A DNA stretch of 64,000 nucleotides from a virus (IMGVR_UViG_3300035696_000004:128001-192000), one strand, 5' to 3'; shown: positions 20,671 through 55,147, numbered from the stretch's first letter. Translations and numbers: made by a program. The notes: a model not told the origin generated them from the letters alone.

Positions 20671-20750
20671 GATTGTTACTCCTTACTATCGTGGTAAAAG
20701 ATCGACATTAGTTGTACGTTCTTGCATGATTACTACCTAAAGTCATGCGA

Positions 20751-20780
20751 GTAATATGTCAGTGAAATAATCTGGAATCG
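20751..20780 (-). promoter_or_regulatory. Phage early-type promoter motif
   Basis: Minus strand CGATTCCAGATTATTTCACTGACATATTAC; matches five other copies and ends in a TATATTAC-like element known from phiKZ early promoters. Confidence 0.7.
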
Positions 20781-31899: not shown

Positions 31900-31965
31900 T
31901 CCTTTATGCGTTTATTAGACAACAAGAAAGACAGGATAGCATGATTGCTACTCAATGTCAATCCA

Positions 31966-31995
31966 GTTATATAGGTTTGAGATATTCTGGAATCG
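31966..31995 (-). promoter_or_regulatory. Phage early-type promoter motif
   Basis: Minus strand CGATTCCAGAATATCTCAAACCTATATAAC. Confidence 0.75.
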
Positions 31996-33107: not shown

Positions 33108-33180
33108 ACGCGTATTCCTTTTTAAAAGATATTAAACAGTACAACACATTACGACATGATTATTATTCAATGTCACCTGA

Positions 33181-33210
33181 GTTATATAGGTTTGAAATAT
33201 TCTAGAATCG
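33181..33210 (-). promoter_or_regulatory. Phage early-type promoter motif
   Basis: Minus strand CGATTCTAGAATATTTCAAACCTATATAAC; near-identical to the chimallin promoter copy. Confidence 0.75.
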
Positions 33211-37436: not shown

Positions 37437-38372
37437 TTACTTCACGTTCTTGTATACGAATTTGATACCAGACGTCGACAGCAGGTGTTTAACCAGCTGT
37501 AGCGGGCGAGAACCACCCAGAGGGATTTCTTTTCGATTGACCAGACTCTCCACATTGCTCGGCATGACAGCCGACATGAGATTGTGCAACAGGTGCCGGT
37601 GAGTAAACGGGCTGTTGTTTCGATCCAGTAGTTCCGCTGTCACCTCAGGTCCTACGTACGAGGTATACAGACGGATCTCAGCTTCACCCAATGCTCGAAC
37701 GGCATTGTTACGGCACGGCATGGAATACTTATCCGTGTTGGTTACCTGAGACAGGACACCAAAGTGCTGGTACTTACCGGACGATACGGCAGCAGCATCA
37801 TCACCGATCTTTTCAAGCAGCATCATGTACACACTACCGATGCGCACAGGGGTCTCTGTAACACCAGGAACCCCGTACTCATCTACATAGGTCACAGGTC
37901 CGTAAACGGGTGCATAACCTCGACTTTCACAATGTCGAATGATATCGGAATATTCATTCTCGTTGTCGGTCGGGTAGTAGATATAGATGCCTTTCTCAAC
38001 AATAGATGCCAGATGGCCTCGACGACGAGCAAGTTTGTCCGGTCTCGCCATGATCAAGCTATGCATCCGGGCAGAAACGCACTCGTAGTAGCCCATGAGA
38101 TAGTCCCAGATCCGATTGAGTTCATCGGGTTGCTGAGTTTCCATCTGAACAATGCGTTCGAGAGCGCCTTTGTAGTCGCCTTCCTGAACACCCAGCATTC
38201 TACGCACACGCTTGGAGACATCACGACTTGCTGCGTTGATGTATTGCTCGTAGAGACGGCTCACGTTCATCCGATTGACGGTTGAAAGGCCGTCCATCAC
38301 GATGTCTGCACGATTACCTTCCGAGTCCACGGGCATTTCTTCGGGTTTGGCAATGTAGCAGATGACGCCTTT
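37437..38372 (-). CDS. Non-virion RNAP beta C-terminal subunit, exon 2 (phiKZ gp73-like part)
   Basis: Starts KGVICYI; contains NRADIVMDGLSTVNRMN and RALGEAEIR (RFGEME homolog). Confidence 0.9.
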   Translation of the reverse strand, partial: KGVICYIAKPEEMPVDSEGNRADIVMDGLSTVNRMNVSRLYEQYINAASRDVSKRVRRMLGVQEGDYKGALERIVQMETQQPDELNRIWDYLMGYYECVSARMHSLIMARPDKLARRRGHLASIVEKGIYIYYPTDNENEYSDIIRHCESRGYAPVYGPVTYVDEYGVPGVTETPVRIGSVYMMLLEKIGDDAAAVSSGKYQHFGVLSQVTNTDKYSMPCRNNAVRALGEAEIRLYTSYVGPEVTAELLDRNNSPFTHRHLLHNLMSAVMPSNVESLVNRKEIPLGGSRPLQLVKHLLSTSGIKFVYKNVK

Positions 38373-39750
38373 CCTTTTGTCCACTTGATCCGTTGTGTCT
38401 CCCGACACGCTCTATCAAGCCGGTGCGATTCCTGGCACCCGCCTCAGGCTTTCCCTGAGGAGCAGACTATATCTTCACCTCCAGCATGACCTGGTAAGGT
38501 GCTTCCTATTTCCCCGGAGATGGCTATCTCCCGTGCACCTAAGCACTGACCCACTTGAGTGGTACACCGTGGTAAGCGGTTAGTCGTTGAACTCCTCCCA
38601 TTCTCGCTGTCGTAGCGAGGGCAGGGGTTAGCTGCGGATTACCCAATCTTTGCCTCTTTTACCGTACCTGAATGATTAGTTCAGCCCTCACGATCATTTC
38701 TAATCATGAGTTGGTGTGCAAAGCTCTCAGGGACTTCCCGTCAATTAAAGAAGGTTTCATTAACTATTTCTAATTAATGAGGCGGGTTGTGAAAATCCAT
38801 CCATCCAGATTCTTGTCGGTATCTAATCGACTTAAAATACTGGAACGATCGACATTAAAATGCCTAGCACATTGAGTCAACGATCCAAACTCCATTGTTT
38901 TCCCGCCTTTACTAGCGCACAGCGGGATTGCGCTGGTGCCCTTCAGACCGCGATCGTAGCGATACGGTGTTTCTGAATAGCTGTCTCGAACGTTGAATTC
39001 TTTATCGGGATAAATCTCATTCCCGTACTGCGCTAACACAGGGATTGATTTTCCTGGAGCCCCGTATAACTGGTGGCGCTTCAGAAGTTCCCTTGTCGAA
39101 TAAACTTCCTCTATGGAACCGTTCGAATCTTTCACTGTAACCATGTACCTCGACGGGGGTACCAGTTCAGTTCTATTTTCATAAAACCACGGTTCAGGGT
39201 CATTCGCACACCGGAACTCATACTTCCCGGCGACTAACTTCCCAAACATTTTTGGTCGCAGATCTACTATTCTGACGTCTTTCCCTAATCCCATGAATTC
39301 AGCAGCTTGAGTTATCGAGTGGAAATAGGACACTTCTCCTGTGAAGTAATCTCTAACTCTACACGGGATGTTGTCCCGTCTCAACCCGCTATTGACAGCA
39401 TGGTAATTATTCCCGGAGTAGCTTGTCCATTCGAGGTTTTCGTACCAGTTATTTCCTGGATGAGCGTCGATATGGTTCACAACGGTAAAATTATCAGGAT
39501 CGGGATTATAAACCCATGCCAAAGCGACTGCTCTATGCACGGGCAAGGTCTCTGTCTTGGATCCTCTGAAAGTATCCACGGCGAGATAGCCATTAAGAAG
39601 ATAAGGGGTGAGCATTATCTTTCGTTCTACTGAAACGATTGTGCCCACTCTGTCCACGGCATAATGTTCATATCCCGGAATTATCCGAAACATTTCATCT
39701 TCCATTCATGCTCCTTTCAACTAAAGGGATGAACGGACTTTCACAATTCC
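38373..39750 (-). mobile_element. Group I intron (1378 nt) with HNH homing endonuclease, in the nvRNAP beta gene
   Basis: 5' exon ends in U, intron ends in G; splicing restores DTAGG|KGVIC. P1 with GUGA tetraloop and U.G pair. Core elements AAUUGACGGGAA, AAUCCGCAGC, GUUCAACGACUA and AAGAUAUAGUC. Confidence 0.9.
38770..39705 (-). CDS. HNH homing endonuclease (NUMOD4-like + HNH + NUMOD1 repeats)
   Basis: VHRAVALAW...VVNHIDAHPGNNWYENLEW; FHSITQAAEF and FGSLTQCARHF repeats; own AAGGAG RBS. Confidence 0.9.
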   Translation of the reverse strand: MEDEMFRIIPGYEHYAVDRVGTIVSVERKIMLTPYLLNGYLAVDTFRGSKTETLPVHRAVALAWVYNPDPDNFTVVNHIDAHPGNNWYENLEWTSYSGNNYHAVNSGLRRDNIPCRVRDYFTGEVSYFHSITQAAEFMGLGKDVRIVDLRPKMFGKLVAGKYEFRCANDPEPWFYENRTELVPPSRYMVTVKDSNGSIEEVYSTRELLKRHQLYGAPGKSIPVLAQYGNEIYPDKEFNVRDSYSETPYRYDRGLKGTSAIPLCASKGGKTMEFGSLTQCARHFNVDRSSILSRLDTDKNLDGWIFTTRLIN

Positions 39751-40962
39751 ACCACCAGCCGTATCAGTCAGCTTAAACCCGATGTTCGGCGTGATCTCGT
39801 ATTCAATGACGAATTCGATTCGCCAATCATCCAGAGCTTCCTTGCGGTAGTTCTTTTTGATCGGGTCACGTTCGGCCATCGTATTGTGGCCGACTACCGA
39901 AATGGCTTCCACTTCCATCCGATGAAGTTCCCGGGTGATGTTCAACTTCCCGTGACGCTCCCTTCGGATGCGGCGCAGCTCATCCAGAATACCTTGGTAA
40001 AACTCTCGACGACCTTTGTCGTACTTGAGCAACTGGGTATCCATTCCGACGGGTAGGCCGACCGTATTGCTTCGGTTCTCGTGCCAGACACGGATATCTT
40101 TGATGCGACCACCCGGTCCCGCGGCATAAACGAGGTCATCGAAGACATAGTTTATTTTCCGCAGACCATAGGCACTTTGCTCGACCAGTGCAAGATCCAA
40201 GTCATAATCTCGCAGCGCCAGCAAGAGTCCGTCTGGTCTTACCTCTTCCCCAATATCAGGGAATGCTTTGAAAACCTCGTCTGTCCCCATCAGGTTAAGT
40301 GGGAAATTATTGAGCCCAAAGGAAGCCGACCTAACTTCGTACGTCTTGAACCGAAGCTCTGGCAAGACATCCTCGCAGATCATGATTCCGTCTTCAGCGA
40401 CGGCTTCATGTGAGAGATAGGCGATATTGAGCTCACGCCCAAAGCAATAGTTTCCGTTCTCCGTGACAGCCGGGGAATCAAGAAAGATTTCTCCTTTTTT
40501 GATTTCTTCTCCTCGACGGAGTCTGGAGTACGGTTTTTTCTTGACGTAATCGAAACCGAAATACTGATGCTGAGAACAATAGTTCGTCAGATTGATCATC
40601 CCAATCTCGTTATTGTCCTCTCTTTCGTACAAGACCACCGTTTGCGGATTGATCTTGATCGAGTCAACATCATTGGTTCTCTGATATCGTTCGATCTTTT
40701 TCAGGATACGCCCCTGATGAGGCATCTTCACTGAGAAGGTATATTTCCCGAATTCACGTTCCATCCCTGTTTGAATTCGGCGTTCCGTCATCCCCTTTAT
40801 GATCAGGTACTGTCCGATATGGCTTGCAAACATCTGGACCCGTGAACTGGAAATCGCTCCAATGAACGGATTCAGGCCGCACGTATCGAGAAACTCCCGC
40901 CGGAGTTGGTTCTGTTCTCGATACCATGGCAAATCACTATACGTCAGCGTTTCTTGACTCAT
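39751..40962 (-). CDS. Non-virion RNAP beta C-terminal subunit, exon 1 (phiKZ gp71-like part)
   Basis: SSSRVQMFASHIGQ, GRELNIAYLS, AEDGIMI, IGFKLTDTAGG. Confidence 0.9.
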
Positions 40963-41016
40963 TACAGAACCCTTGTTTAGGTTTTGAATCTTCTTACTGG
41001 ACACAACTACTAATTA

Positions 41017-41045
41017 GTAATATGTGTCTGAAACATTTTGGAGAG
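41017..41045 (-). promoter_or_regulatory. Early-type promoter motif variant upstream of the beta gene
   Basis: Minus strand CTCTCCAAAATGTTTCAGACACATATTAC. Confidence 0.55.
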
Positions 41046-41049
41046 TTTT

Positions 41050-41397
41050 ATGGCGACCGATATTAGTAACCTCATGGCAGGTACGACACAGCTCGTATAT
41101 TACGATGAAGATTTTCGAGCGGTCTTGGAAGACCACATGACGATACTCCAAACCTACACCAATACCGTGAAGGTCGCTATTCAACCTGGCGATGCGGCGA
41201 CCTTTGTGAACGACTTCTACGGGCTCATGGCGTATCTGGGTGAGCCTCCTCAACGGCATTGGCTATTGATGCGGATGATGGGATTCACATCCCCTGACCA
41301 AAGCGATGAAACGCTCACCTATTACTTGAAGCCCGATACGACGTTTGTGGAGCGACTTCGCTCGTACTACATGACCAATCATACCGTGAAGGCTTGA
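41050..41397 (+). CDS. Conserved small chimallivirus protein on the opposite strand
   Basis: ATG 41050 after GGAGAG; RAVLEDHM...DFYGLM...HWLLMRMMGFTSP. Confidence 0.7.
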   Translation: MATDISNLMAGTTQLVYYDEDFRAVLEDHMTILQTYTNTVKVAIQPGDAATFVNDFYGLMAYLGEPPQRHWLLMRMMGFTSPDQSDETLTYYLKPDTTFVERLRSYYMTNHTVKA

Positions 41398-41448
41398 GTT
41401 GGGTTAATACAAAGTATGTATGGTGAAAGTAAAAAAGAAAAAGACATA

Positions 41449-41474
41449 GGAGAGAGGGGCGAACCCCTCTCTCC
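41449..41474. terminator. Bidirectional stem-loop between convergent genes
   Basis: GGAGAGAGGGG-cgaa-CCCCTCTCTCC; flanked by GACATA and TATGCT. Confidence 0.8.
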
Positions 41475-41494
41475 TTATGCTCTCACTTTACGAC

Positions 41495-42796
41495 TTAGAA
41501 CCCAGGACCGCGACGACCGCGACCGTACGGATCAGGACGTCCAACGCCACGACCCGCGGTTTGACCGCCATTACTCAACGTGGCACGCCCGGCGCTCGGA
41601 GGTGCACGACGCAAGACCTGGCCACGCCCCAGCCAGGGTTGAGCGGCTTGCTCGTTTTGGTACGGATCGTTGTACGGATCACGTTCATACCGTTGCTGCT
41701 GGTATTGCGGCTGTTGCCGAGCGAGGTGACGTGCGGCGAAGTCCGCGAAGTCCGCACCGCCCTTTGCCGTTTTCGCAGGAGTGACCGGTTCGACACGGCC
41801 ACGAGGTTCCGGAACAGCCATCCCGATTTCAGCAGCCGTCGGTTCAGCACGCTGTTGACGAGTGACGACCGGACGATCTTCTACCTCCTTGGCAGCTTGC
41901 TTGATCTTGTTGAAAGCCGGTGCACCTTCATTGCCAGGAAGCATCGGAATCATCCGGATCTGGTTGAGCAAGATCTTCATGTCTTCGGCAGTAGGTACCC
42001 AAGCCATGTCGAACTTCAATGCATTCATGCCGGGGATGCCATCCCCGAACAACTCACACTGCGCATTGATTTCTTTTGCCAGATTCCGACCCAGTAGCAG
42101 CAACGATTCGAAGTACGGTGCAAACTTCGAATCACTCCCCGCGTAGTAGTTTTCGGGATGTTCGAGGTCCGGGAAGAGATACTCGAGAACCCCCAAGAGC
42201 GTATCGCGGGCTTTATTGCTGATCTTGACGCCGTGGAATTCTCCTTTGGCTGCCTTCAGTGCTGTGTAGAACGGGAAAGATACAATCCCCGCGCGAGCGA
42301 ACACCTGCTCGCCGATATGACCGCTTCGCTTCAGGTAGATCTTGACGAAGAGTTCATCTTCCTTGGTGGCCGGAATCTTCGACATGATGCTCTTGAAGGC
42401 CTGGATGGTCTTCTCATCGGCTGCCGACGCTTTCGACAGAAAAACTTGCTGAGGCGTCGAGAGCTTGGTTTGTTCAGCAGGCGAGGCGGCCAGTTCGAGC
42501 AGCAATTTGACCTGTGCGCCGATCACCTGGTTGAACCGGATGTTCATGGCCTTCCTGAACCGAGTCAGGACTTCAGATTCCCCGCAGGAAACCTCCTCCC
42601 AGCCCGGATGGAACGCGACACGCTTCGACCAATCCGAATCTGCCATGTGCTCGCGACTCGGCAAAACGAGTCGCTTACCACTCATGGTGAACGGGCGGTG
42701 GTTACCGTTTACATCTTGGGTGGATAGGCAGTCATCGCTGGTGACATGAAATCCAGCGAAGGTCAGGACACTGCGATAAAACTCGATCAGATCCAT
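41495..42796 (-). CDS. Chimallivirus core protein (phiKZ gp70-like) with RG/Q/Y-rich disordered tail
   Basis: 433 aa; synteny between the PicA-like and beta genes. Confidence 0.65.
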   Translation of the reverse strand: MDLIEFYRSVLTFAGFHVTSDDCLSTQDVNGNHRPFTMSGKRLVLPSREHMADSDWSKRVAFHPGWEEVSCGESEVLTRFRKAMNIRFNQVIGAQVKLLLELAASPAEQTKLSTPQQVFLSKASAADEKTIQAFKSIMSKIPATKEDELFVKIYLKRSGHIGEQVFARAGIVSFPFYTALKAAKGEFHGVKISNKARDTLLGVLEYLFPDLEHPENYYAGSDSKFAPYFESLLLLGRNLAKEINAQCELFGDGIPGMNALKFDMAWVPTAEDMKILLNQIRMIPMLPGNEGAPAFNKIKQAAKEVEDRPVVTRQQRAEPTAAEIGMAVPEPRGRVEPVTPAKTAKGGADFADFAARHLARQQPQYQQQRYERDPYNDPYQNEQAAQPWLGRGQVLRRAPPSAGRATLSNGGQTAGRGVGRPDPYGRGRRGPGF

Positions 42797-42814
42797 TTTC
42801 TTTTCCTTGTTGTC

Positions 42815-44287
42815 TTAATAGCCGCTAAACTGCCGACCCGATTCATAACCACTACCGGCGAAATCTTGCGGGAGCGATATTGTCGGAAGAACTTCGTTGA
42901 TGAAGTTCTCAAACCGCTCGGCTGTCGCTCTGACGTGCTGATTGTTGTACGCGAAAACCGGGGTGGCCAACGAGTTACTGAACGACGGCGCCACGAAACG
43001 CTCCGTCGGATAACCATCCAGCTCGATATCGATGATGGTATCGCCCATGAGGTCGAGAGTCATTTCGATAGCAAAGCCAATTTCACCTTGGTAGCAGATA
43101 TCGTTCAGTACTTCGCAGATGGTTCGAATCCGGAGATTCTCGGCAGGATAGGTCAGATCCATGTTCGAGAAACTGCGCAGACCCATGGGTTGGAAGGCCA
43201 CTTGGGAGTTCATGGTTCGATTGGTGGCTTTGAAGGCAGCCCACGTCAGACCCGATTCCATCATGATGCCCGGGATCGATTGACTCAGGATGCAGGCGAC
43301 CTGCGTGATACGGTCCCGACCGTCCCAAGGACTGGTGTCACCAGCATGATGCAGCCGGTTCCGTTCCAGATTCGGCATGATGATCGCTTCGGTCACGTCT
43401 TCGTAACCCGGAGACAACCGTTCCAGATCACGCAACGTGAAGTAGTTCGTCGAGGCCACACCTTGGATACTGGCCAGCGATTTCAGGAACGTGTCGTTCA
43501 TCACAGCGGCTTCAGCGACCTGATCGCCATTACGGGCATCGCTGAAGATCGAACCGCCTGTTTTCCCGAGAGCCATCAGGGATTGAGCATCACGATAGCT
43601 CGACAGGATACGGCTGGTATAGACCGCCGAATTGGCGTTGCCATAACGGCTCTTGCGGGGCGCCGCTGTGGACATCGTACGACCATCGATCACATCACCT
43701 TCGTCGTCCGGAAGATGTGTGGTTTGCATCTGAGCCAACAGGTCGGTCGGGCGCATCATGACCTGGTTGTTGGTGTCGATGACGTTTGCGTAGCTGTTGT
43801 TGGCGAGCAGTTGGCTGGAGTTGGCGATCACCGACCGGGGTTGCGTAACGCCATGGACGCGCACCATTTCTTCACGGATGAGGGTCGTCGAGTTGATGTA
43901 GAACTCGAGATCCGGATTGATGGTTTGTTGCAACGTGATGTCGCGCGATGCGCTGTACCCCATTACCAGCTCGGTGATCTTGCTCCCGCGAAGGTTGTCC
44001 GTTTCGACTTCCATCATGAAACGGAACCGCGGCTCATTCCAACCTTCCGGAATCGGAATGATATCCTTTTGATCGACAGCGATGGCTGGTGCCAAAATCT
44101 GATTGGCCAGGCCCGATACCGCCATCGAGCTCAGATCCTGATTCTGCTCGATGCGTTCCGCGATCTGATTCACGGCGTCGTGGGTAAAGTGCGCTTCGAA
44201 AGGACGCGAAAACTGCGCCCCATACGTACCCGTTTCGTGGATGAAAAAACGGGTGATTCGAACACTGCTGTTATCGTCGAAGAACAT
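42815..44287 (-). CDS. picA: Phage-nucleus protein import factor PicA/Imp1 (phiKZ gp69-like)
   Basis: 490 aa immediately downstream of the gp68-like gene; ETGTY..QFSRPF and GW.EPRFRFMMEVE motifs. Assigned mainly by synteny and size. Confidence 0.7.
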   Translation of the reverse strand: MFFDDNSSVRITRFFIHETGTYGAQFSRPFEAHFTHDAVNQIAERIEQNQDLSSMAVSGLANQILAPAIAVDQKDIIPIPEGWNEPRFRFMMEVETDNLRGSKITELVMGYSASRDITLQQTINPDLEFYINSTTLIREEMVRVHGVTQPRSVIANSSQLLANNSYANVIDTNNQVMMRPTDLLAQMQTTHLPDDEGDVIDGRTMSTAAPRKSRYGNANSAVYTSRILSSYRDAQSLMALGKTGGSIFSDARNGDQVAEAAVMNDTFLKSLASIQGVASTNYFTLRDLERLSPGYEDVTEAIIMPNLERNRLHHAGDTSPWDGRDRITQVACILSQSIPGIMMESGLTWAAFKATNRTMNSQVAFQPMGLRSFSNMDLTYPAENLRIRTICEVLNDICYQGEIGFAIEMTLDLMGDTIIDIELDGYPTERFVAPSFSNSLATPVFAYNNQHVRATAERFENFINEVLPTISLPQDFAGSGYESGRQFSGY

Positions 44288-44330
44288 GGGGTTTTCTTTC
44301 GTAGAAACGTGTTATCGTTAACTGCGCTTT

Positions 44331-45929
44331 TTAAAGTTGTTGAGTTCGGCTCGCCAGCGCTTGATCTCTCTGGATCTCTACCATCTCGAGAGCGAAACGT
44401 GCCAGATTGATCTTGAACTCGTAACTCAGGGAATAGTACCGAGAATTCTTGTTATTGGTCACGGTACTCAACCATTCATCCGGGATTGTCAGTAACCATC
44501 CGTTGGCTTTGAATTGTTTTTCCAACGAATCTATCGCTTGGATTGCATGGTTTTTCTGCAAGTCCAGCTTTTTGCCAGACGTCTTGCGGCGATACGGATA
44601 AAACTTATCGAACTCTTCGAGCATGCTCTTGGGGATGCGCGCCCGACTGTCGTCCAACAGCACCGTCGGTTGGTCAAACGACCTTCTTCGATTGGTGTTA
44701 ATGGCCGTGATCAGCGCAGCCAGCTCGTAATGACCACGATGCCAGAGAATGGCTTGTGCGACAGCCAAGAATTCCACCAACGTCGAGACATCGAAGTGCT
44801 CACTCGAGTGGGTCGGGATCCGAATCGACATGACCATTTGAGCGATCTTCTCTTGGCAAGGTTCCAAGGTCTGACCAATGAGGGCTCTTGCCGATGTCAA
44901 GGACGCAGTCACCAACTCTTTCGGGATACCAGGCGCCAGCGCCTCGGCCAGTTTGTACGGCTTGTGGATAGGAGATTCGATAATTGCGATATCCCCATCC
45001 GTGACCTTCATCTTGATCTTGACGTTTTCCAGACCCGAGAGATTGCTTTCATCATTCCCGTTATCCGTCGGAGCACGCTTGTCTTTGATAGCACCTTTGA
45101 AGTTGGTATCGATCCCTTTCAGTCGATTGCAGACGAACTTGAAGATGACCTTCCCAAAGGCCTTCTTCGGATCAATACCACGGATATCCATGCTGGAAAT
45201 CTTTCGCACAATGAGGAGTGCGAGAATCCATTTTGGGATATCTTCGGAACTGATGCCGGCGATAATAGCACTCGCTAGCTTCTTTCGATCCGCCGGGAGC
45301 GAATCGATCACGTAGTCACGCAACCGAACCATAGCACCCGAGTTATAGAGCGGCGTCTTGCCCAGGAGCTGGTACGCCTCGTACTCTTTCCAGTTCGTCC
45401 CGGCACTGCGTTTGATCCGGGCAATGTACTCACCCCAGACCATATAGATCGGACGTAGGATAACCGACAAGGCGAGGATTTTCTTGTAGTCGTCCCGCAG
45501 GATGGTTTTGGTTTTGTTACCAATCATCCCATCAACGAATTCATCCGCCAGATCCGTTGGGATCGTGATACCAGATCGGAAATACACCCAATCTGCCAAT
45601 TTGGCAGGATCGTGGAGTTCGACGAGCTCGGCGATATCGTCCATGAGCACGAGGGAGAGATCGTGTTCATCGAGAATCGATTCGAGGTGGTCTTTGATCT
45701 TCGACATCGAATTGAAGATGTCGCCCTGTTGTTCGTTCGGTAACGTCGACCAATAGGCGTTGATTTGTTCGAACGGGTCGTAATCGTTCGAGTCGTCATC
45801 GTCGCGGCTATTGGTATTTTTTTCGATCAGAACAAACGTAACACGCTGTTCGTTTTTATTCTGGTCGAGACCAATGAGATGTGCTTCATTGGCGACGCTA
45901 TCAAATAGTACCCCCACTTTCAAGCGCAC
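44331..45929 (-). CDS. Non-virion RNAP sigma-like promoter-specificity subunit (phiKZ gp68-like)
   Basis: FEQINAYWSTLP...DY...LRP...WGEYI...WHRG...YP match the recalled gp68 sequence; 532 aa. Confidence 0.85.
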   Translation of the reverse strand: MRLKVGVLFDSVANEAHLIGLDQNKNEQRVTFVLIEKNTNSRDDDDSNDYDPFEQINAYWSTLPNEQQGDIFNSMSKIKDHLESILDEHDLSLVLMDDIAELVELHDPAKLADWVYFRSGITIPTDLADEFVDGMIGNKTKTILRDDYKKILALSVILRPIYMVWGEYIARIKRSAGTNWKEYEAYQLLGKTPLYNSGAMVRLRDYVIDSLPADRKKLASAIIAGISSEDIPKWILALLIVRKISSMDIRGIDPKKAFGKVIFKFVCNRLKGIDTNFKGAIKDKRAPTDNGNDESNLSGLENVKIKMKVTDGDIAIIESPIHKPYKLAEALAPGIPKELVTASLTSARALIGQTLEPCQEKIAQMVMSIRIPTHSSEHFDVSTLVEFLAVAQAILWHRGHYELAALITAINTNRRRSFDQPTVLLDDSRARIPKSMLEEFDKFYPYRRKTSGKKLDLQKNHAIQAIDSLEKQFKANGWLLTIPDEWLSTVTNNKNSRYYSLSYEFKINLARFALEMVEIQRDQALASRTQQL

Positions 45930-45981
45930 ATGTTCCCCCTTTACTCCGTATTAGAAAACACTGGATTACAAGCTCATTTCA

Positions 45982-46010
45982 GTAATATGTGATTGAGATA
46001 TTCTGGACTC
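45982..46010 (-). promoter_or_regulatory. Early-type promoter motif upstream of the gp68-like gene
   Basis: Minus strand GAGTCCAGAATATCTCAATCACATATTAC. Confidence 0.7.
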
Positions 46011-46029
46011 CTACCTAAAAGACATGAAG

Positions 46030-46061
46030 GCAAATCCCAAACCGTGAGGCCTGGGATTTGC
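46030..46061 (-). terminator. Stem-loop after the 137-aa gene
   Basis: GCAAATCCCA...TGGGATTTGC. Confidence 0.6.
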
Positions 46062-46080
46062 ACATCAAGACGTATGCCGA

Positions 46081-46494
46081 TTACTTGGCGGCTTTGGCGT
46101 AGGCGACTTCAGCGGCCACGTAAGCAGCCAGAGCAACAGCACCGGCAGAGCCAGCTTGGAACTGGCTGGCATTGCGGCGCGTCACACCCAGACGCGCGGT
46201 CAGGGACTTGCCTTGGTAACCGGCGGCCACGTTCGCCAGATAGGTACCGGTGTTTTCGTCCCAGTCGACCGTTGCGACGGACAGTCCGCGGCGATCGAAG
46301 ATCTGGAGACCGTTCGGGGTTTGAATCCCCGAGAAGGAATAGTCCGGATTCCCGGACGAGGTGACGATTTCGAGGAACACGACTTCAGCGATCGTATCCT
46401 GGACAGCAGCGTTCTGCGGCGAAGCTTCGTCCGCGGTCAGCGAGATGAGGTTGCCGGTCGCGCCCGATACCAGCGGAAGGGAAAGCAGTGCCAT
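46081..46494 (-). CDS. Hypothetical beta-rich protein located in the core block
   Basis: 137 aa; AAGGAG RBS; strong C/T third-position bias. Confidence 0.75.
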   Translation of the reverse strand: MALLSLPLVSGATGNLISLTADEASPQNAAVQDTIAEVVFLEIVTSSGNPDYSFSGIQTPNGLQIFDRRGLSVATVDWDENTGTYLANVAAGYQGKSLTARLGVTRRNASQFQAGSAGAVALAAYVAAEVAYAKAAK

Positions 46495-46546
46495 TTGGAG
46501 CTCCTTTGGTTAGGCTCTTTGGGTAAAGAGCCATACGATTTTCAGA

Positions 46547-47287
46547 TCAGAACGGCATGTCGTCATCGATCTCTTGTTGTCGCTGACCACCGCCGTTGTT
46601 GTTGTTCCAGTTGCTGCCGCCACCATTGCCACCGTTGTTGCTACCCTGGTAACTGCCGTTGTTGTTGTTGTTGCCGCCTTGATTCGGGCGCGGACGCGGC
46701 GGAACCAGTTGTTGGGTCGCGATCGTGGAGAGCAGACGTTCGAGCACATTGCAGCGGCCGGTAGCATCCAGAACGGACATCTCGGCTTCGCTGAACTGTT
46801 CGCCAGTTTTGTGGTAGTACGCATGCCAGTCGTTGGTGCCGAACTTGAAGACGATCCGCGGACGGGACTTGTCGTACGCAACGATGCAGATGTAGACGAC
46901 ACCATTGGCATCCTTGCCGACGTAGGTGGTCGACTCGACCATTTTGCCATCGGGTTTCTTCTGGACCCAGCGCTGCTTCAGGTTTTCGATCTTGAAGCCG
47001 ATTTCTTTCTTTTCCGGTGTCGGCACGAAATCGATCGCATGGCGCAGCAGGATCAACATCTTTTCGAAGTTCGGAACATCCATGTTGGCCGAGATGCGAC
47101 CACTGTCGGCATCACCTTCCACATTGGTCCAGACGGTGATCCGCGGTTCACCTTTGTTGAAGCCAAACCGCAGTTGGGCTTTCTTCCCGTGATCATTGTC
47201 GGCGGTCATGATCAGTTTCGGGTTGTCGAAGCCGGTCATTTCTCGTTGCTGACCGCCATTGTTGTTGTACTCACCAGCCATGCTCAC
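46547..47287 (-). CDS. chmC: ChmC-like nucleic-acid-binding shell-associated protein with an SSB-type acidic tail
   Basis: 246 aa; Asn/Gly-rich disordered termini around a folded core; position between gp66-like and gp68-like genes; ends EIDDDMPF. Confidence 0.6.
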   Translation of the reverse strand: MSMAGEYNNNGGQQREMTGFDNPKLIMTADNDHGKKAQLRFGFNKGEPRITVWTNVEGDADSGRISANMDVPNFEKMLILLRHAIDFVPTPEKKEIGFKIENLKQRWVQKKPDGKMVESTTYVGKDANGVVYICIVAYDKSRPRIVFKFGTNDWHAYYHKTGEQFSEAEMSVLDATGRCNVLERLLSTIATQQLVPPRPRPNQGGNNNNNGSYQGSNNGGNGGGSNWNNNNGGGQRQQEIDDDMPF

Positions 47288-47340
47288 TCCCTTCAGGTAA
47301 CTTGATTCGCTGTATCATTAGATATCTCAGCGACGTATTT

Positions 47341-48216
47341 TTACACGATGATGGACTTCACGAGTTCTTTGGCCCACGGATTCTTGAGCCGATCAACGCA
47401 CAACCGAATACGATCCGTCGTGGTCGTTTGATTCCAGTTGCTGGCAGTGGCAAGTTCGACCAGATCCTTTTTAAGGGATGCTGCCATAGGTCGAAAGTGC
47501 TCACTGTCTCCAAAGATCTGGATGAAATCTTCCCTGAACGGAATCATGGAGAGGTCTTTCCCATTCAGATATTTGGTATACCATAATGCTCGCGGTTTGA
47601 GGGCACCTGTATGACTTTCCAACAAGACCAGTTCCCCAAACTCAGGGTACGACAGCAGATCATACGCGTAATGCGTCATGATGAGCGTCTTTTTCTTGCT
47701 AGTGGGACGGAGCTTCAATGGAAAGGTGCACACATCGTAATCTTGTCGTTTCACCCCCTTTAGTGAATCGAGGACGTGCTGTACTGCCTTGTGAAGTGTC
47801 GACGTGTAGATTTGTTGCTTGGGCGTTGAGTCGACCCTCAACGTCGCTCGCGGGTACTTCTTGTCCATCCTTTCGTAATTACTCACATAGAACACCACAC
47901 GCGTTCGTTCTGCGGTCTCATGGTTCACGATACCGGCGATCGTCTCCATTTCTTGGAGAATCGCGTCTCCGATATGGTTCGGCATGGCCGACATCGCGTC
48001 TTCGCGATTCAGCGATCCATTGAGGTTTCGAAAGAGTGTTCGGATGTTGATCCAAACTTCCTGAAACCCCATGGTGAGTGGTGGTGTTTTGTGTTGGATG
48101 TCGGGATGGATGTTCAACAGGCTTTCCAAGCCAAGGCTCGAACCGATACTGACTGGTAATTGTCCGACTTCTCGGCTCGAGATGACTTCAGATGAGGCAC
48201 TAGCGGCCATCAACAA
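47341..48216 (-). CDS. Chimallivirus core protein (gp66-like), possible 5'-3' nuclease/PIN-like fold
   Basis: WINIRTLFRN, THYAYDLL, LLESHTG and QIFGD motifs; fold inferred. Confidence 0.6.
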   Translation of the reverse strand: MLMAASASSEVISSREVGQLPVSIGSSLGLESLLNIHPDIQHKTPPLTMGFQEVWINIRTLFRNLNGSLNREDAMSAMPNHIGDAILQEMETIAGIVNHETAERTRVVFYVSNYERMDKKYPRATLRVDSTPKQQIYTSTLHKAVQHVLDSLKGVKRQDYDVCTFPLKLRPTSKKKTLIMTHYAYDLLSYPEFGELVLLESHTGALKPRALWYTKYLNGKDLSMIPFREDFIQIFGDSEHFRPMAASLKKDLVELATASNWNQTTTTDRIRLCVDRLKNPWAKELVKSIIV

Positions 48217-49322
48217 ATCCTTTCAATAATAGAGGAAGCCAAATCCAGCACTTCCGCTCGAGTCCCCTTTCCTGCCATTCGTTCCAATAGCAAACTTTGG
48301 ATATTATCCCGAGTGATAGCAATTGGATCAAATAGCGTCTCGTTTTCAATGATGATTTCTTTTTCTTCGGAAGCATCGCTGGGGTTCTTTGACCAGTTGA
48401 ACAGAGGATGTCGTCTGATCAATGCATCCATATTGGCAAAGATCGGGTTAGTATACTCACCCACAACACGTACATGCGCGCCAGCTTGAAGCTTCTCGAC
48501 TTCACGATCAATTTTCTCGATCGTCTCCTCCAAACTCAACTCACCGCAATGTACCGTAACAAACTCAAGAGCACCGTCATTATCGACGAATCGAAATTCA
48601 TCACGACCGTTGGCTCTGAGTGTTGCTCGAACATATCCCTTCTTCCCTTCTTCCCCGTGGGACATTCGATCAAATGAACCCTGGGCAAAGATATGCTCCC
48701 GTCGAGAACGGACATGGACGTGACCGATGCTGATGAATCGCTTCACCAACTTCAGGTATTCATCCCCGTTGTGTCTCGGGATAGAAGCAGGTGCCGCAGG
48801 CGGTAGCTGGTGATCAAACTGCCCGTGCATGATAGCGATATCCACTGACGTCAGGCCTTTGGCTCGAATCAGTTCTTTCACCTGCACCAGTGTCACATCT
48901 GTAGACGGATGCCACTCATCGGGTACGTAGAGGACGTTATATCCTTTTATGTTCTCGATATGCAGCGTTTTGACGTACAACACGTCCGCATGTGCTCCAC
49001 TGATTGTGTTGAGCGTTTCGAAACGCCGAGATTGCTGCCAATCATGCGACCCTGTGCCTTCAAGGATGCGGAGCATGACGTCATGTTTCTTGCACAGCCG
49101 CAACAAATCAGAAATCCAGAAATCAATTTCTCTAAGGTCGTCTCCATTCGACACCAAGAGATCGTCAAAGACGTCTCCGGCTAAAAAGAGAACATCTAAA
49201 GAAGCGAATTCAGCGTTGTCGCTGAATGGTTTCCCTAGATTCTGTATCATCATTGAGACAGGGTTACGGCGATGACCCAGATGCAGGTCGCTCGCCGATG
49301 CCAGGTTGAGATCAGAGTTCAT
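48210..49322 (-). CDS. sbcD: SbcD/Mre11-like metallophosphoesterase nuclease (gp65-like)
   Basis: SDLHLG, AGDVFD, GTGSHD, MHGQF and IGHVH motifs. Confidence 0.85.
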   Translation of the reverse strand: MNSDLNLASASDLHLGHRRNPVSMMIQNLGKPFSDNAEFASLDVLFLAGDVFDDLLVSNGDDLREIDFWISDLLRLCKKHDVMLRILEGTGSHDWQQSRRFETLNTISGAHADVLYVKTLHIENIKGYNVLYVPDEWHPSTDVTLVQVKELIRAKGLTSVDIAIMHGQFDHQLPPAAPASIPRHNGDEYLKLVKRFISIGHVHVRSRREHIFAQGSFDRMSHGEEGKKGYVRATLRANGRDEFRFVDNDGALEFVTVHCGELSLEETIEKIDREVEKLQAGAHVRVVGEYTNPIFANMDALIRRHPLFNWSKNPSDASEEKEIIIENETLFDPIAITRDNIQSLLLERMAGKGTRAEVLDLASSIIERIC

Positions 49323-49968
49323 CGAATTCGGTATAATCGAGGAGAGGTGCCGGTTTCACTTCTTCGGTAGCTTCTTCCGGGCTACCGATCTTTTCGAGAT
49401 CAACCGGTGTGACCAGGTTGTACTTCTTGAAGATCGCACCCCAGCGTTTCAGGTATTCAACAGCCGGACCGTCACCCTTCATGACGTTGAAGTGGGAATG
49501 CAGACGACTATCCAGATACGCCTCGGCGTTTTTGGGACTTTGGTTCATGAGCTGTTGGGCTGTTTTGACCAGGTGCCCTACACCACCCAGGACACCGAAT
49601 CGCGCCTTGATGTCGGATGGCTTGATGGCTTCACGATCGTACAGAGGCGGTACCGTGAAGAGAACAGGGCCGCCGATATATTCGACGACGTCTACTTCTT
49701 TAAACGTCCCGGACAGGTCGGTATCCGCATCGCCACCCGATGCAGTATGGACCCAGAGATCGATGTCCCCGCCATTGGGGCATTCGTACGTGGTACCAGT
49801 CAGATGGTTGGCCAGAATCGGTAGAAACACGCCGACGAAGATCCGTTCGATCACTTGGGCATTTCCGGTGCGCCTGGTGGCATCATCAAGCAGTCGCTTG
49901 GTTCCTTTGACATCCAGCGAATCTCTCTGCGATGCCAGATTTCCGAAATTGATTCCCGATACCGCCAT
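49312..49968 (-). CDS. Conserved hypothetical protein
   Basis: 218 aa in the core operon. Confidence 0.7.
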   Translation of the reverse strand: MAVSGINFGNLASQRDSLDVKGTKRLLDDATRRTGNAQVIERIFVGVFLPILANHLTGTTYECPNGGDIDLWVHTASGGDADTDLSGTFKEVDVVEYIGGPVLFTVPPLYDREAIKPSDIKARFGVLGGVGHLVKTAQQLMNQSPKNAEAYLDSRLHSHFNVMKGDGPAVEYLKRWGAIFKKYNLVTPVDLEKIGSPEEATEEVKPAPLLDYTEFDEL

Positions 49969-49970
49969 GA

Positions 49971-50393
49971 TTAGGCACTCCCTGTATTGTTGAGGTTTTC
50001 GACAATGGAGAAGACAGAGTCTCTCGCTTGGATGGCTTTACCAACCGAATATTCGACGCTTTGGTACGTCACGGTGATAGTGATGACTAGCGTCACGCTA
50101 TTGGTCACGTTGGAGCTCGACCAGGCATCACTGGTGATTTCGACTTGTGCGGAACTGTAATACCGCGCAAACATCGCCTCCAGCGCAGACCGGAGAGACG
50201 AAATGGTTGCTGAGATATCCAGAGGTTTTTGAGCCAAGAGATACTGAATGCTCGTAATCGCACTCGGGTAAATATACGTCTGGAGGTAATCCGTTTCGAA
50301 ACAGTACGTGAACAACCGATCCAGTTGCTCCTCGATACCATATACCCAGCCACGATCATCCATCGTCGGGACCGGAATTGAATTAGTTGTCAT
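49971..50393 (-). CDS. Conserved hypothetical protein
   Basis: ATG 50393 after GAGGA; 140 aa. Confidence 0.7.
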   Translation of the reverse strand: MTTNSIPVPTMDDRGWVYGIEEQLDRLFTYCFETDYLQTYIYPSAITSIQYLLAQKPLDISATISSLRSALEAMFARYYSSAQVEITSDAWSSSNVTNSVTLVITITVTYQSVEYSVGKAIQARDSVFSIVENLNNTGSA

Positions 50394-50496
50394 GGGGGTT
50401 TCCTCGATATGATCACAAGATGATACCGGGGTGTAAAAAAGCAAGAAAAAAAGTACGGTATAAAAAGGAGAAGCCCGAAGGCCTCCCCTTTTCGGT

Positions 50497-51135
50497 TCAC
50501 AGTTTATTTCTGTAAATGCTGGACGGATCTTCTGCACCTTCCCGCAGCGCAATCTCGATCGCGTTCCAAGCATGGTTCTTGATATCGGAAACTTCCTCAC
50601 ATGTCAAGTCACGGTCACCTTCAACCAAATCCTCAACATAGTGCGTTATTTTCCAATCCGGACCTTCTTCTCCTTCCGATACCACCAGATCTTCCACGAC
50701 ACCGTCCATGACTCGCCGATAGTCGTAGTGGTCCTCACCGATTTGACCCGGATACAGATCCACATAGCTATCGGAATAGCCATCGATCTCTTGATCGAAG
50801 TACTTTCGTCTCGCGTACTTGTTCGCCATCAGGTAACGTTGCATCACCTTAGGCGCTTCTTGCAGTTGAGAGATATCCGTCAAGGCTCGAATCGTGTTGG
50901 GTGAGAACAGCATCTTCGTTCGTCTGAGCGCTGCTTTGCCCTTACGAACCGCTTCACTTCCGTGGAAGCTTTCGAATCGCTCTCTGGCAGAACTCATGAA
51001 GGCACGCCCGGCATCGGTCAACGTATTCGAAACCGCGCTGAACTGCTGCTCGATATACGAAATTGTACCGGGATGATCGTCACCGTAGACAAGGTAGTTG
51101 AACGCCTCCATCCCACCTGTCGAAACTTGAATCAT
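50497..51135 (-). CDS. Conserved hypothetical protein
   Basis: 212 aa; MQRYLMAN...GYSDSY...DYRRVMDG motifs; GAAGGA RBS. Confidence 0.75.
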   Translation of the reverse strand: MIQVSTGGMEAFNYLVYGDDHPGTISYIEQQFSAVSNTLTDAGRAFMSSARERFESFHGSEAVRKGKAALRRTKMLFSPNTIRALTDISQLQEAPKVMQRYLMANKYARRKYFDQEIDGYSDSYVDLYPGQIGEDHYDYRRVMDGVVEDLVVSEGEEGPDWKITHYVEDLVEGDRDLTCEEVSDIKNHAWNAIEIALREGAEDPSSIYRNKL

Positions 51136-51152
51136 TCCTTCACCTCGTTTAG

Positions 51153-51377
51153 CTACGCTTCGGGTATTTCCATAAACCTCTCGAAAGCCCCTGGGGTGGT
51201 GTTTTCTTTTCCGCTATGGATCAAATTGGAGATTGACGCCACAGTAGGTTTTGGCATAGCCAGGTTGCCTGTTACCTTTCGGGGTTTCTTCAAGTCAAAC
51301 ACGCCTTTATGGGGCGCTAGATTTTCGTGCGCTCTGGCCATGAAATTATCAAGACACAGAGTGAAGTTGAGCTGATC
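51153..51377 (-). CDS. Non-virion RNAP beta-prime N-terminal subunit, exon 2 (gp56.1-like)
   Basis: Begins with D of the catalytic DFDG|D motif. Confidence 0.85.
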   Translation of the reverse strand, partial: DQLNFTLCLDNFMARAHENLAPHKGVFDLKKPRKVTGNLAMPKPTVASISNLIHSGKENTTPGAFERFMEIPEA

Positions 51378-51805
51378 CAATATACATTGTACACATTGCT
51401 GTGTTTTTATCAGGACGTGACTCCTGTCGGGACCGATTCCAGTCGGTGCCTGTCCGATGATTTCGCACCGGTTGAGGTCATATCTTAGCCTATACTACAG
51501 CTCTTTCCGTTTGGGGCGCACTTGCTACCCTACTCTACTCGCTTTAATCGTCGTGTCACGACGACCACCTGACTTTATACAGATGTGATTATGCTTTCGC
51601 AATAGCTTTCGATGACCGTCGAACACACTTCCCAGTGGGAAGCTTCGTTGCGGATTGCCCGACACATGCCTCTTTTACCGTACCTGAATGATTAGTTCAG
51701 CCACATTCCTATTACTAAGAATGTTTGGTGTGCACTGTCATTTACGGATGCTCAGTCCGTGGGTGTCCCCGTCAGTTAGAAAAGTTTAACGATGGCAATC
51801 AATTC
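51378..51805 (-). mobile_element. Group I intron (428 nt), no endonuclease ORF, in the RNAP catalytic motif
   Basis: GAUGGU|...GCCAUC P1 with U.G pair; P10 UGAUU/GAUCA; terminal G; core AACUGACGGGGA, AAUCCGCAAC, GUUCGACGGUCA and AAGAUAUGACC. Confidence 0.9.
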
Positions 51806-53074
51806 ACCATCAAAGTCGCAGTTCATCGCGACGACGGCTAGGAACGATATCGAAACGGTCGGATCACTCATGTCTGTCTTGACACGCGAGATCCCTACAG
51901 CTTGACACGAGCCTCGATTCAGACTCGGGTTGCGCTGCATAGTGGCCGGAATAGCTCCGCCAGGTGCTTCGGCTATCAGTTCCTTAAACAACTCATCCAG
52001 GAGCGGATGATACTGCGTGGTATATTCATTCAACAGCGCGAAGATATCATTCGGGCTGAATCCACGTGCTTCTAGCTTATTTGCCAAATGCACGCGCAAT
52101 ACCGTCACCGCCAAGTTCCACGGGATATGGATCTCGTCGTAGAAGTGCGAACCCGTCAACGATGATACGACAGCCCGGAAACTGAAGTGGGCTCTCGAAC
52201 CGAACACGTGTTTACGAAGGATCCCTTGCTTCTTCCCCAACGTAAAGCGATAGACCGACTCGTAATACGCGGCGAGCTGGACAATCGTTTTCAATGTTCT
52301 GTTCTCTTTCACCTGGACGGTGAAGTTGTTGAGATCAGAATCAATCCCCGCCATCGTCTGGATCGCATCGATCGAATCCAGAATGATCGGGTCCATGTAG
52401 CGACCCACATTCGTATTCTCTACGACGAGTAGGGCGCGATTAGGTAGCGGGATATAGTCAGAGAAGATGGCATCCCGGTATCGTTCCAGAAACTTCTTGA
52501 AGCTGGTCTTCTTTCGGCCAGGCTTCGCGAAGAGCCGCATCGAATAGAGTCCATCTATAATGGCATCGAAGTTCTGGATGAACGCGTTATAGCCTCGCCT
52601 TACATTGAGGCCCATCAGCATTTCATTGACAGCCGTGATGTATTTGCTTTGCTTCGAGGATACCTTGTAATACGGATCACAAATCCAACGAATGACTTCG
52701 AAGCCGCCTTTCGTGAACTCCCTTTTCATCATCGTCCAGACAACAGGGTTGATTAACTTTTCAACCCCATTAGGACTACGGATCCAGAGGAGCGGATCGA
52801 TCTTCTTTTCAAACTTTGCAACGACCGGAGTGCCGCACTCTGGGCAGATGACAGGATCTTCTGCATTCAGCTTATGCTCACCAAACGTCGCATTACACGA
52901 GCAAGCTGGGATGTTGGATAACACATCCCCTTCAGTTGCCGTATAGATGAGTTCGTTGAGTTGGCGTTTCGAGTCTTCTGATTGATTGTTGTAGTCATTC
53001 AGAATAATCGGGATGTGCGCGGTCTGCTGCTGGAACAACAGGTCATGATTCTCGAGACTAAGCGATACCCCCAT
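51806..53074 (-). CDS. Non-virion RNAP beta-prime N-terminal subunit, exon 1 (phiKZ gp55-like)
   Basis: Zinc-binding CSC/CPEC, LRKHVFGSR, RAVVS, QRNPSL, MNCDFDG. Confidence 0.92.
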
Positions 53075-53108
53075 TTTCAATCCTTTTTTACAAATTGAGG
53101 GAAAAAAA

Positions 53109-55117: not shown

Positions 55118-55147
55118 GTGATATAGGTTTGAAATATTCTAGAATCG
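55118..55147 (-). promoter_or_regulatory. Early-type promoter of chimallin
   Basis: Minus strand CGATTCTAGAATATTTCAAACCTATATCAC. Confidence 0.8.

What the first reader, a model, noticed from the sequence alone, without database searches (positions are those of the whole stretch)
38651..51702. Two divergent group I introns share an identical 36-nt peripheral block
Seen: TGCCTCTTTTACCGTACCTGAATGATTAGTTCAGCC occurs at 38651-38686 and 51667-51702. It lies between the P and Q core elements (P5 extension; contains a CUGAA/UUCAG stem), while flanks and even P7 differ (GACUA/UAGUC versus GGUCA/UGACC, a compensatory change). Inference: perfect identity in a peripheral domain suggests a shared protein-binding or tertiary module (e.g. 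a common splicing or export cofactor in the phage nucleus) or recent gene conversion between the introns.
Basis: partly seen in the sequence, partly recalled or inferred. Interest (0 to 1): 0.6.

Follow-up and report, generated by a model that had tools for sequence, protein, structure and literature searches.

The report
Shared P5abc piece in two introns
The identical 36-base block is the most conserved part of a well-known stabilising arm (P5abc) of group I self-splicing introns; near-identical copies occur in unrelated phages of unrelated hosts, so it is an ordinary ribozyme module and not a device special to this phage.

Summary
The 36-mer occurs exactly twice in the window and in the whole 219,772-bp phage genome. 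Both copies lie on the minus strand inside group I introns. These introns split the beta ('GG|KGV') and beta-prime ('DFDG|D') genes of a phiKZ-like RNA polymerase.

The block is the P5c hairpin, the GGU strand and the A-rich bulge of a Tetrahymena-type P5abc three-way junction. A 67-sequence alignment supports P5a, P5b and P5c by covariation: 95.6% of cells paired against 63.9% when shuffled.

The module is generic. More than 119 IMG/VR contigs carry it, giant viruses included. The same P5c variant occurs in 36 IMG/VR contigs, 14 metagenome contigs, a Clostridia MAG, Enterococcus phage iF6 and a human-gut phage. One metagenome intron matches the first 33 bases exactly.

Within the closest sub-lineage, unrelated introns with equally divergent flanks share 31-35 of the 36 bases. 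The 36/36 match is the top of that distribution (1 of 89 pairs). That is weak evidence for a short gene-conversion patch on top of purifying selection. A phage-nucleus cofactor is not supported. Interest is low.

The parts
38651..38686 (-). Block copy 1. Junction GG 38686-38685; P5c hairpin 38684-38668; linker 38667-38664; GGU strand of distal P5a 38663-38661; A-rich bulge 38660-38654; top of the P5a 3' strand 38653-38651.
51667..51702 (-). Block copy 2, with the same elements as copy 1, in intron 2.
38373..39750 (-). Intron 1 (1378 nt) in the RNAP beta-like gene. The 5' splice site follows the codons for '..TDTAGG'; the last base is G at 38373; exon 2 starts 'KGVICY'.
   Evidence: colinear with the intronless FLC9 gp370, 'TDCFGGKGVICK'. 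Rfam RF00028 75.9 bits at 38804..38442.
38770..39705 (-). Homing-endonuclease-like ORF (311 aa) in the 5' part of intron 1. Its stop codon overlaps the 5' strand of P2.
   Evidence: Pfam I-HmuI_NUMOD-like 1.8e-7 and NUMOD1 2e-4. tblastn matches to HNH endonucleases of other intron loci.
38648..38724 (-). P5abc three-way junction of intron 1. P5a 5' strand 38724-38718; junction 38717-38711; P5b with a GAAA loop 38710-38687; block; P5a 3' strand 38653-38648.
   Evidence: The minimum-free-energy fold gives the three-way junction (z = -3.3). Covariation.
51378..51805 (-). Intron 2 (428 nt, no ORF) in the RNAP beta-prime-like gene, splitting 'NCDFDG|DQLNF'. P1 is 51812-51806 with 51796-51790, with a U.G pair at the splice site. 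The last base is G at 51378.
   Evidence: Not detected by Rfam.
51661..51739 (-). P5abc of intron 2. P5a 5' strand 51739-51732; junction 51731-51725; P5b with a GUAA loop 51724-51703; block; P5a 3' strand 51669-51661. An extra hairpin at 51760-51744 lies on the 5' side.
39751..41004 (-). Exon 1 of the intron-1 host gene (RNAP beta-like, N-terminal part).
   Evidence: 55.7% amino-acid identity to FLC9 gp370.
37437..38372 (-). Exon 2 of the intron-1 host gene.
   Evidence: Pfam RNA_pol_Rpb2_6 1.1e-7. 294 phage records match, all phiKZ-like jumbo phages.
51806..53080 (-). Exon 1 of the intron-2 host gene (beta-prime-like, ending in the catalytic 'NCDFDG').
51153..51377 (-). Exon 2 of the intron-2 host gene ('DQLNFTLCLD...').

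Best explanation
The block is the 3' half of a Tetrahymena-type P5abc peripheral domain. It comprises the P5c hairpin, the short linker, the GGU strand that pairs with the invariant ACC, the A-rich bulge, and the first three pairs of the P5a 3' strand.

[quoted passage not shown] Together with tandem G.A pairs at the junction they fold into a rigid unit that buttresses the P4-P6 half of the ribozyme core. The GNRA loop of P5b provides a second clamp.

Because these residues make tertiary rather than Watson-Crick contacts, they cannot drift by compensatory change as the P5a and P5b stems do. They are therefore nearly frozen in the whole intron sub-lineage.

The two introns of this phage both belong to that sub-lineage. 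Their perfect identity is mainly shared descent plus strong purifying selection. No phage-specific function is needed. At most the last one to three identical bases call for an extra event.
For: (1) Position. Rfam places copy 1 in the P5 loop between the P4 strands. Intron 2 aligns at the same place.

(2) Architecture. The order is ACCAA, a GNRA-capped hairpin, GG, a second hairpin, then GGUAYGGUAAAA. This matches the published Tetrahymena P5abc sequence element for element (PMC2386494). [quoted passage not shown]

(3) Covariation on 67 sequences. 95.6% of cells are paired against 63.9% in shuffles (0 of 500 reach it). The covariation score is 0.83 against 0.20, and at most 0.17 when partners are slid. 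All 7 P5a pairs, all 8 P5b pairs and 3 of 5 P5c pairs change on both sides. ACC/GGU, the AA of the junction and GGUA.GGUAAAA are invariant.

(4) Generic occurrence. More than 119 IMG/VR contigs carry the module, giant-virus bins included. The P5c variant of this block occurs in 36 IMG/VR contigs. It also occurs in 14 metagenome contigs and one Clostridia MAG, in Enterococcus phage iF6 and in a human-gut phage. L181 matches the first 33 bases exactly. L166, L157, L186, L187 and L192 match 34 of 36.

(5) Among 17 non-redundant members of the closest variant, the 88 pairs other than i1-i2 with flanks no more than 70% identical share 31-35 of 36 bases. Three pairs from different samples (flanks 83-88% identical) are also 36/36.

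(6) Each intron has closer P4-P6 relatives elsewhere than in the other intron. Intron 1 matches L189 and L187 at 83%; intron 2 matches L186 at 85%. So they are not recent duplicates.

(7) Co-resident introns in other contigs do not share their P5c blocks (L148, L174, L157, L040). Within-genome identity is therefore not a rule.
Against: The intron 1-intron 2 pair is the only 36/36 pair among 89 variant-A pairs with comparably divergent flanks; 7 of 89 reach 35 or more. It is 1 of 599 in the wider P5c sub-lineage.

The two share three minority states: U at block position 15, C at 23, and GCA at 34-36 with the matching UGC on the other strand.

Tertiary contacts are inferred by analogy and were not tested. 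The partner of the strongly conserved P5c loop in these introns was not identified. Intron 2 has no P2, so the Tetrahymena L2-L5c pairing cannot apply to it.
Confidence: 0.7

Rival explanations
1. Short-patch gene conversion. A heteroduplex formed between the two co-resident introns at the conserved P5abc core and was repaired over about 36-50 bp. This erased the few differences that the two lineages would otherwise show.
For: It is the only 36/36 pair among pairs with flanks no more than 70% identical: 1 of 89, or 1 of 599 in the wider set. Identity drops sharply at both edges of the block.

The two share rare states at positions 15, 23 and 34-36. The same genome holds a clear mosaic: intron 1 and a third intron are 79-100% identical from J6/7 to the 3' splice site, including a 47-nt perfect run, but about 50% identical upstream.

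Domain shuffling between T4 introns at conserved core elements has been described (Bryk and Belfort 1990). I cite this from my own knowledge; it was not found in the held library.
Against: Unrelated introns already share 33-35 of the 36 bases, so conversion would explain only 1-3 bases. A rough estimate of chance identity within the closest variant is about 5% (my arithmetic on the table).

The identical 10-mer on the 5' side is separated from the block by a P5b hairpin that is only 58% identical. One continuous tract is therefore excluded. Same-site introns in other genomes carry near-identical blocks in both lineages (L189 for the beta site; L157 and L181 close to intron 2). No donor or direction can be inferred.
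Confidence: 0.25
2. The block is a shared binding site for a phage-encoded splicing, folding or nuclear-export factor of this nucleus-forming phage, and that factor holds the two copies identical.
For: The phage does encode a homologue of the phiKZ nuclear shell protein. The P5c loop is more conserved than simple helix formation requires.
Against: The same block occurs in phages of Gram-positive hosts that are not chimalliviruses, in a human-gut phage and in a Clostridia MAG contig. The third intron of the same genome lacks it. Co-resident introns in other jumbo-phage contigs carry different P5c sequences. No candidate protein was identified.
Confidence: 0.04
3. The match is a chance repeat or an assembly artefact.
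For: None.
Against: No matches were found in 100 dinucleotide-preserving shuffles. Both copies sit at the homologous structural position of two introns whose removal restores conserved polymerase motifs.
Confidence: 0.01

Closest known systems
[quoted passage not shown]
   Same: The order of elements is the same: P5a, ACCAA junction, P5b capped by a GNRA loop, GG, P5c, a GGUA strand, then the A-rich bulge. The junction and bulge letters are nearly the same. The expected role is the same: an independently folding buttress of P4-P6.
   Different: Here P5c has a 4-5 bp stem with a 7-9 nt loop of conserved UAAY type, instead of the Tetrahymena pentaloop. The bulge is A4-5(GAG) instead of AAUAAG. 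The introns also carry long insertions between P7 and P3', where IA-type P7.1/P7.2 helices sit. Intron 2 lacks P2, so an L2-L5c (P14) contact is impossible there.
Group I intron with an HNH endonuclease (gp210) in an RNA polymerase beta gene of nucleus-forming phage PhiPA3 (PMC11620839)
   Same: It is a group I intron with a homing endonuclease that interrupts a conserved motif of a jumbo-phage multisubunit RNAP gene. Another PhiPA3 intron (L005, RF00028 71.7 bits) carries the same P5abc module with a compensated P5c stem.
   Different: The insertion sites differ. That paper is about the endonuclease, not the ribozyme periphery.
Phage introns of Gram-positive hosts: the Enterococcus phage iF6 nrdD-region intron and Staphylococcus Twortvirinae lysin introns
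   Same: They are 70-76% identical to intron 1 over P3-P6. iF6 shares 31 of the 36 block bases.
   Different: The hosts, genes and phage families are unrelated, and none of these phages forms a nucleus.
Domain shuffling between T4 td and nrdB/sunY introns (Bryk and Belfort 1990; from my own knowledge)
   Same: It involves recombination between co-resident phage introns at short conserved core sequences. This is the mechanism invoked by the conversion rival and by the intron 1 / intron 3 mosaic.
   Different: It is shown experimentally in T4 and only inferred here.

Membership tests
Group I intron (Rfam RF00028) | Score above the family gathering threshold | tested here: met
   Intron 1 scores 75.9 bits against a threshold of 50.
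Group I intron (Rfam RF00028) | Score above the gathering threshold, intron 2 | tested here: not met
   No RF00028 match even at E up to 10 on the isolated intron. Its nearest relative L181, with the same P7 variant, is also missed. Ten other loci carrying the module score 52-77 bits.
Group I intron (structural definition) | Conserved P4/P7 core elements and helices P3-P9 in order, intron 2 | tested here: met
   The segment alignment shows the P4 strands, the J6/7-P7 element and the P7 3' element, with compensated P7 pairs. The unconstrained fold recovers P5abc, P6, P7 and the P9 hairpins. P3 (6 bp) and P1 (7 bp) were found by complementarity.
Group I intron (structural definition) | Precise interruption of a conserved ORF; U at -1 paired to G in the guide sequence; G as the last intron base | tested here: met
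   Both exon joins are colinear with the intronless FLC9 orthologues. Both 5' exons end in U and both introns end in G. P1 of intron 2 is clear. P1 of intron 1 is weak: 5 bp, read by eye.
Group I intron | Self-splicing with guanosine | not testable with these tools
P5abc-type three-way junction | Three helices P5a, P5b and P5c supported by covariation | tested here: met
   18 of 23 pairs change on both sides, and 95.6% of cells are paired.
P5abc-type three-way junction | A-rich bulge 3' of a GGU(A) strand that pairs with (U)ACC; AA and GG at the junction able to form tandem G.A pairs | tested here: met
   These columns are invariant or at least 90% conserved in 67 sequences. The same letters occur in Tetrahymena. 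The pairing geometry itself was not tested.
P5abc-type three-way junction | GNRA tetraloop on P5b | tested here: met
   GAAA in intron 1 and GUAA in intron 2; GNRA in most of the family. A receptor in P6 was not sought.
P5abc-type three-way junction | Mg2+-dependent tertiary fold docking on P4-P6 | not testable with these tools
   Inferred from PMC3439887.
Gene-conversion tract between paralogous sequences | Identity significantly above that of unrelated family members with equally divergent flanks | tested here: inconclusive
   36/36 against a range of 31-35 in the other 88 pairs: 1 of 89 pairs at 36, and 7 of 89 at 35 or more.
Gene-conversion tract between paralogous sequences | Phylogenetic incongruence that identifies a donor and a recipient | tested here: inconclusive
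   Near-identical blocks occur in relatives of both introns (L189; L157, L181, L186). No direction can be inferred.

The most novel reading that the evidence does not exclude
Co-resident group I introns of a nucleus-forming jumbo phage exchange ribozyme modules by short-patch recombination. Intron 1 would then be a three-way mosaic: its own P3-P6 backbone, a P5c/A-bulge patch shared with the beta-prime intron, and a P7-P9 half shared with the intron in the paralogous beta gene. The 36-nt identity would be a fresh conversion scar.
Probability: 0.25. Interest if true: 0.4.

Novelty: new member of a known kind. Interest (0 to 1): 0.2.

Why it matters
Mainly as a caution. Perfect identity of a short RNA segment between two divergent introns looks like evidence for a special shared function. 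Here it falls on the part of a classical peripheral domain that evolves slowest.

Three smaller points are useful:
- The Tetrahymena-type P5abc junction is widespread in phage and giant-virus introns, with a phage-typical P5c loop of UAAY type whose tertiary partner is unknown.
- The Rfam group I model misses a sub-lineage with a GGUCA/UGACC P7, so introns in jumbo-phage polymerase genes are under-annotated.
- Both catalytic subunits of this phage's RNA polymerase depend on splicing.

Tried and rejected
- **Exact 36-mer in IMG/VR:** no hit outside the phage's own genome.
- **Rfam on intron 2:** searched twice with permissive thresholds; nothing found.
- **Fixed-spacing pattern around the P5c loop:** mostly chance coding hits, only five introns. 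It was replaced by a gapped pattern.
- **Block imported into intron 1 from the beta-prime intron lineage:** first suggested by same-site introns L137, L024 and L179, which have other P5c stems. Rejected when L189, a same-site beta intron, turned out to carry 33 of the 36 bases.
- **Same-site orthologues of intron 2:** L155, L157, L148 and L032 proved to sit at several nearby but different sites of the beta-prime active-site region. A clean orthologue/paralogue test was therefore not possible.
- **Pairing partner for the P5c loop:** read by eye. The full complement of the loop lies in the paired 5' strand of P5b in intron 1, and only a 5-nt complement lies in the P1 loop of intron 2. There is no consistent partner, so this was dropped.
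- **T4 domain-shuffling paper:** the literature search did not find it in the held library.
- **Intron 1 helix coordinates:** They were read by hand.
Full report
**Observation**

The 36-mer is present exactly at 38651-38686 and 51667-51702 on the + strand. No further copies occur at up to three mismatches, and none in 100 shuffles. The window is bases 128001-192000 of a 219,772-bp virus record with terminal repeats, and the whole genome holds only these two copies. No ORF of 60 aa or more overlaps either copy.

Both copies are functional on the minus strand. Copy 1 lies inside an Rfam RF00028 match (75.9 bits, 38804..38442). It sits in the long insertion that the model places in the P5 loop, just before the P5 and P4 3' strands.

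**The two introns**

Intron 1 runs from 39750 to 38373. The upstream exon ends '..FKLTDTAGG' and the downstream exon starts 'KGVICY..'. The intronless orthologue in Burkholderia phage FLC9 reads '..FKLTDCFGGKGVICK..'.

Exon 2 matches Pfam RNA_pol_Rpb2_6. The 311-aa ORF in the 5' part of the intron has NUMOD-type homing-endonuclease domains.

Intron 2 runs from 51805 to 51378 and has no ORF. It splits 'NCDFDG|DQLNF', the catalytic NADFDGD motif of a beta-prime-like subunit; FLC9 reads 'NADFDGDQLNF'. Rfam does not detect intron 2 even in isolation. Other evidence supports it:
- It has the P4 strands, the J6/7-P7 element and the P7 3' element, with a compensated P7 (GGUCA/UGACC against GACUA/UAGUC).
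- It has a 7-bp P1 with U.G at the splice site, a 6-bp P3, and a terminal G.
- Its unconstrained fold recovers P5abc, P6, P7 and the P9 hairpins.

Ten related loci with the same P5 extension score 52-77 bits against RF00028.

The phage is phiKZ-like. Its polymerase exons match about 300 jumbo-phage records, at no more than 51% amino-acid identity. It encodes a homologue of the phiKZ nuclear shell protein next to the intron-2 host gene.

**What the block is**

Read 5' to 3' on the RNA, the region in both introns has these parts:
- a covarying stem (P5a);
- the letters ACCAA;
- a hairpin capped by a GNRA loop (P5b; GAAA in intron 1, GUAA in intron 2);
- GG;
- a four-base linker;
- GGU;
- a run of A's;
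- the return strand of P5a.

The published Tetrahymena P5abc sequence has the same elements in the same order, with nearly the same junction and bulge letters (PMC2386494). The block is therefore GG, P5c, the linker, the GGU strand, the A-rich bulge and the top three bases of the P5a 3' strand.

In Tetrahymena the A-rich bulge contacts the P5c loop. Tandem G.A pairs form at the junction, and Mg2+ ions are bound specifically in this core (PMC3439887). The block is thus the part of the domain held by tertiary contacts rather than by replaceable Watson-Crick pairs.

**Structure support**

I aligned 67 non-redundant examples. RNAalifold predicts the three-way junction. Pair counting gives the following:

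| Measure | Observed | Control |
|---|---|---|
| Cells paired | 95.6% | 63.9% in shuffles (0 of 500 reach it) |
| Covariation score | 0.83 | 0.20 in shuffles; at most 0.17 with slid partners |

All P5a and P5b pairs, and three of five P5c pairs, change on both sides. ACC/GGU and the A run never vary. The single-sequence fold of intron 1 gives the same junction (z = -3.3).

**How general the block is**

BLAST of intron 1 found the P3-P6 region at 70-77% identity in several places:
- Staphylococcus Twortvirinae lysin introns;
- Enterococcus phage iF6;
- a human-gut phage;
- Pseudomonas phages HPP-Temi and PhiPA3.

The specific P5c variant of the block occurs in 36 IMG/VR contigs. It also occurs in 14 metagenome contigs and one Clostridia MAG contig. 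L181 matches the first 33 bases exactly, and five other contigs match 34 of 36. Several of these contigs are other jumbo phages with introns in the same polymerase genes (L179, L137, L024 and L189 at the beta site; L148, L155, L157 and L032 around the beta-prime active site). Others are unrelated.

**Is 36/36 more than conservation?**

Segment by segment, the two introns are 100% identical in the block and 26-67% elsewhere. In the P5c sub-lineage (42 non-redundant members, 861 pairs), the only 36/36 pair among the 599 pairs with flanks no more than 70% identical is this one.

The closest variant has 17 members and the same junction and bulge type. Among its 89 pairs with such flanks, block identity is distributed as follows:

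| Identical bases of 36 | Pairs |
|---|---|
| 36 | 1 (intron 1-intron 2) |
| 35 | 6 |
| 34 | 25 |
| 33 | 28 |
| 32 | 17 |
| 31 | 12 |

Three pairs from different samples (flanks 83-88% identical) are also 36/36. The excess to be explained is therefore one to three bases: a U at position 15, a C at 23, and the GCA that pairs with UGC.

Each intron has closer P4-P6 relatives in other samples than in its genome-mate. Near-identical blocks occur in relatives of both introns, so no donor can be named. The identical 10-mer on the 5' side is separated from the block by a P5b hairpin only 58% identical, which excludes one continuous tract.

Co-resident introns in other contigs do not share P5c blocks. 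Within-genome identity is therefore not a rule, which argues against a shared cofactor. Any conversion here would be a sporadic event.

**Recombination in this genome**

A third intron lies outside the window, at genome 218395..216717 on the minus strand (RF00028 66.9 bits). It sits at the homologous 'GD|KAV' site of a paralogous beta gene. It is 79-100% identical to intron 1 from J6/7 to the 3' splice site, including a 47-nt perfect run. Upstream it is only about 50% identical, and it lacks the block. Exchange between introns therefore does occur in this genome. This keeps the conversion rival alive at about one in four.

**Verdict**

The structural reading (a P5 extension acting as a tertiary module) is right in the generic sense. 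The phage-nucleus cofactor idea is not supported, and gene conversion is possible but weakly supported. The element is a new member of a known kind and of low interest.

Noticed in passing
Genome 216717-218395 (minus strand; outside the window, about 88717-90395 in window numbering), locus L004: A third group I intron (RF00028 66.9 bits) with an HNH_3/NUMOD4 endonuclease ORF lies at the homologous site of a paralogous RNAP beta gene. Its 3' half is 79-100% identical to intron 1, including a 47-nt perfect run, while its 5' half is unrelated. Intron 1 is therefore a mosaic.
   Followed up: partly
window 20725-20780, 31940-31995, 33155-33210, 45956-46011, 55118-55147: Five copies of a 30-56 nt motif each lie 40-95 nt upstream of the start of a minus-strand ORF (starts at 20670, 31899, 33107, 45929 and 55025). 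The motif looks like a phage promoter or another 5' regulatory element.
   Followed up: partly
window 53148-55025 (-): Homologue of the phiKZ gp054 nuclear shell protein (chimallin; E = 8e-21, 25% identity), directly upstream of the intron-2 host gene. The gene order matches phiKZ gp054-gp055, where an HNH endonuclease gene (gp056) follows.
   Followed up: partly
Loci L148, L155, L157, L032 (IMG/VR jumbo-phage contigs): The coding region around the beta-prime NADFDGD motif is an intron hot spot. Two or three group I introns lie within about 100 nt of coding sequence at several different sites, leaving micro-exons.
   Followed up: partly
window 51378-51805 and locus L181: Rfam RF00028 misses intron 2 and its nearest metagenomic relative. 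Both have P7 GGUCA/UGACC. This is a blind spot of the model for one phage intron sub-lineage.
   Followed up: partly
window 38770-38779: The stop codon and last codons of the intron-1 endonuclease ORF overlap the 5' strand of the P2 hairpin. Translation of the ORF and folding of the ribozyme may therefore interfere with each other.
   Followed up: no
window 51744-51760 (-): Intron 2 carries an extra 17-nt hairpin inserted on the 5' side between P5 and P5a. It is absent from intron 1 and from most relatives.
   Followed up: no
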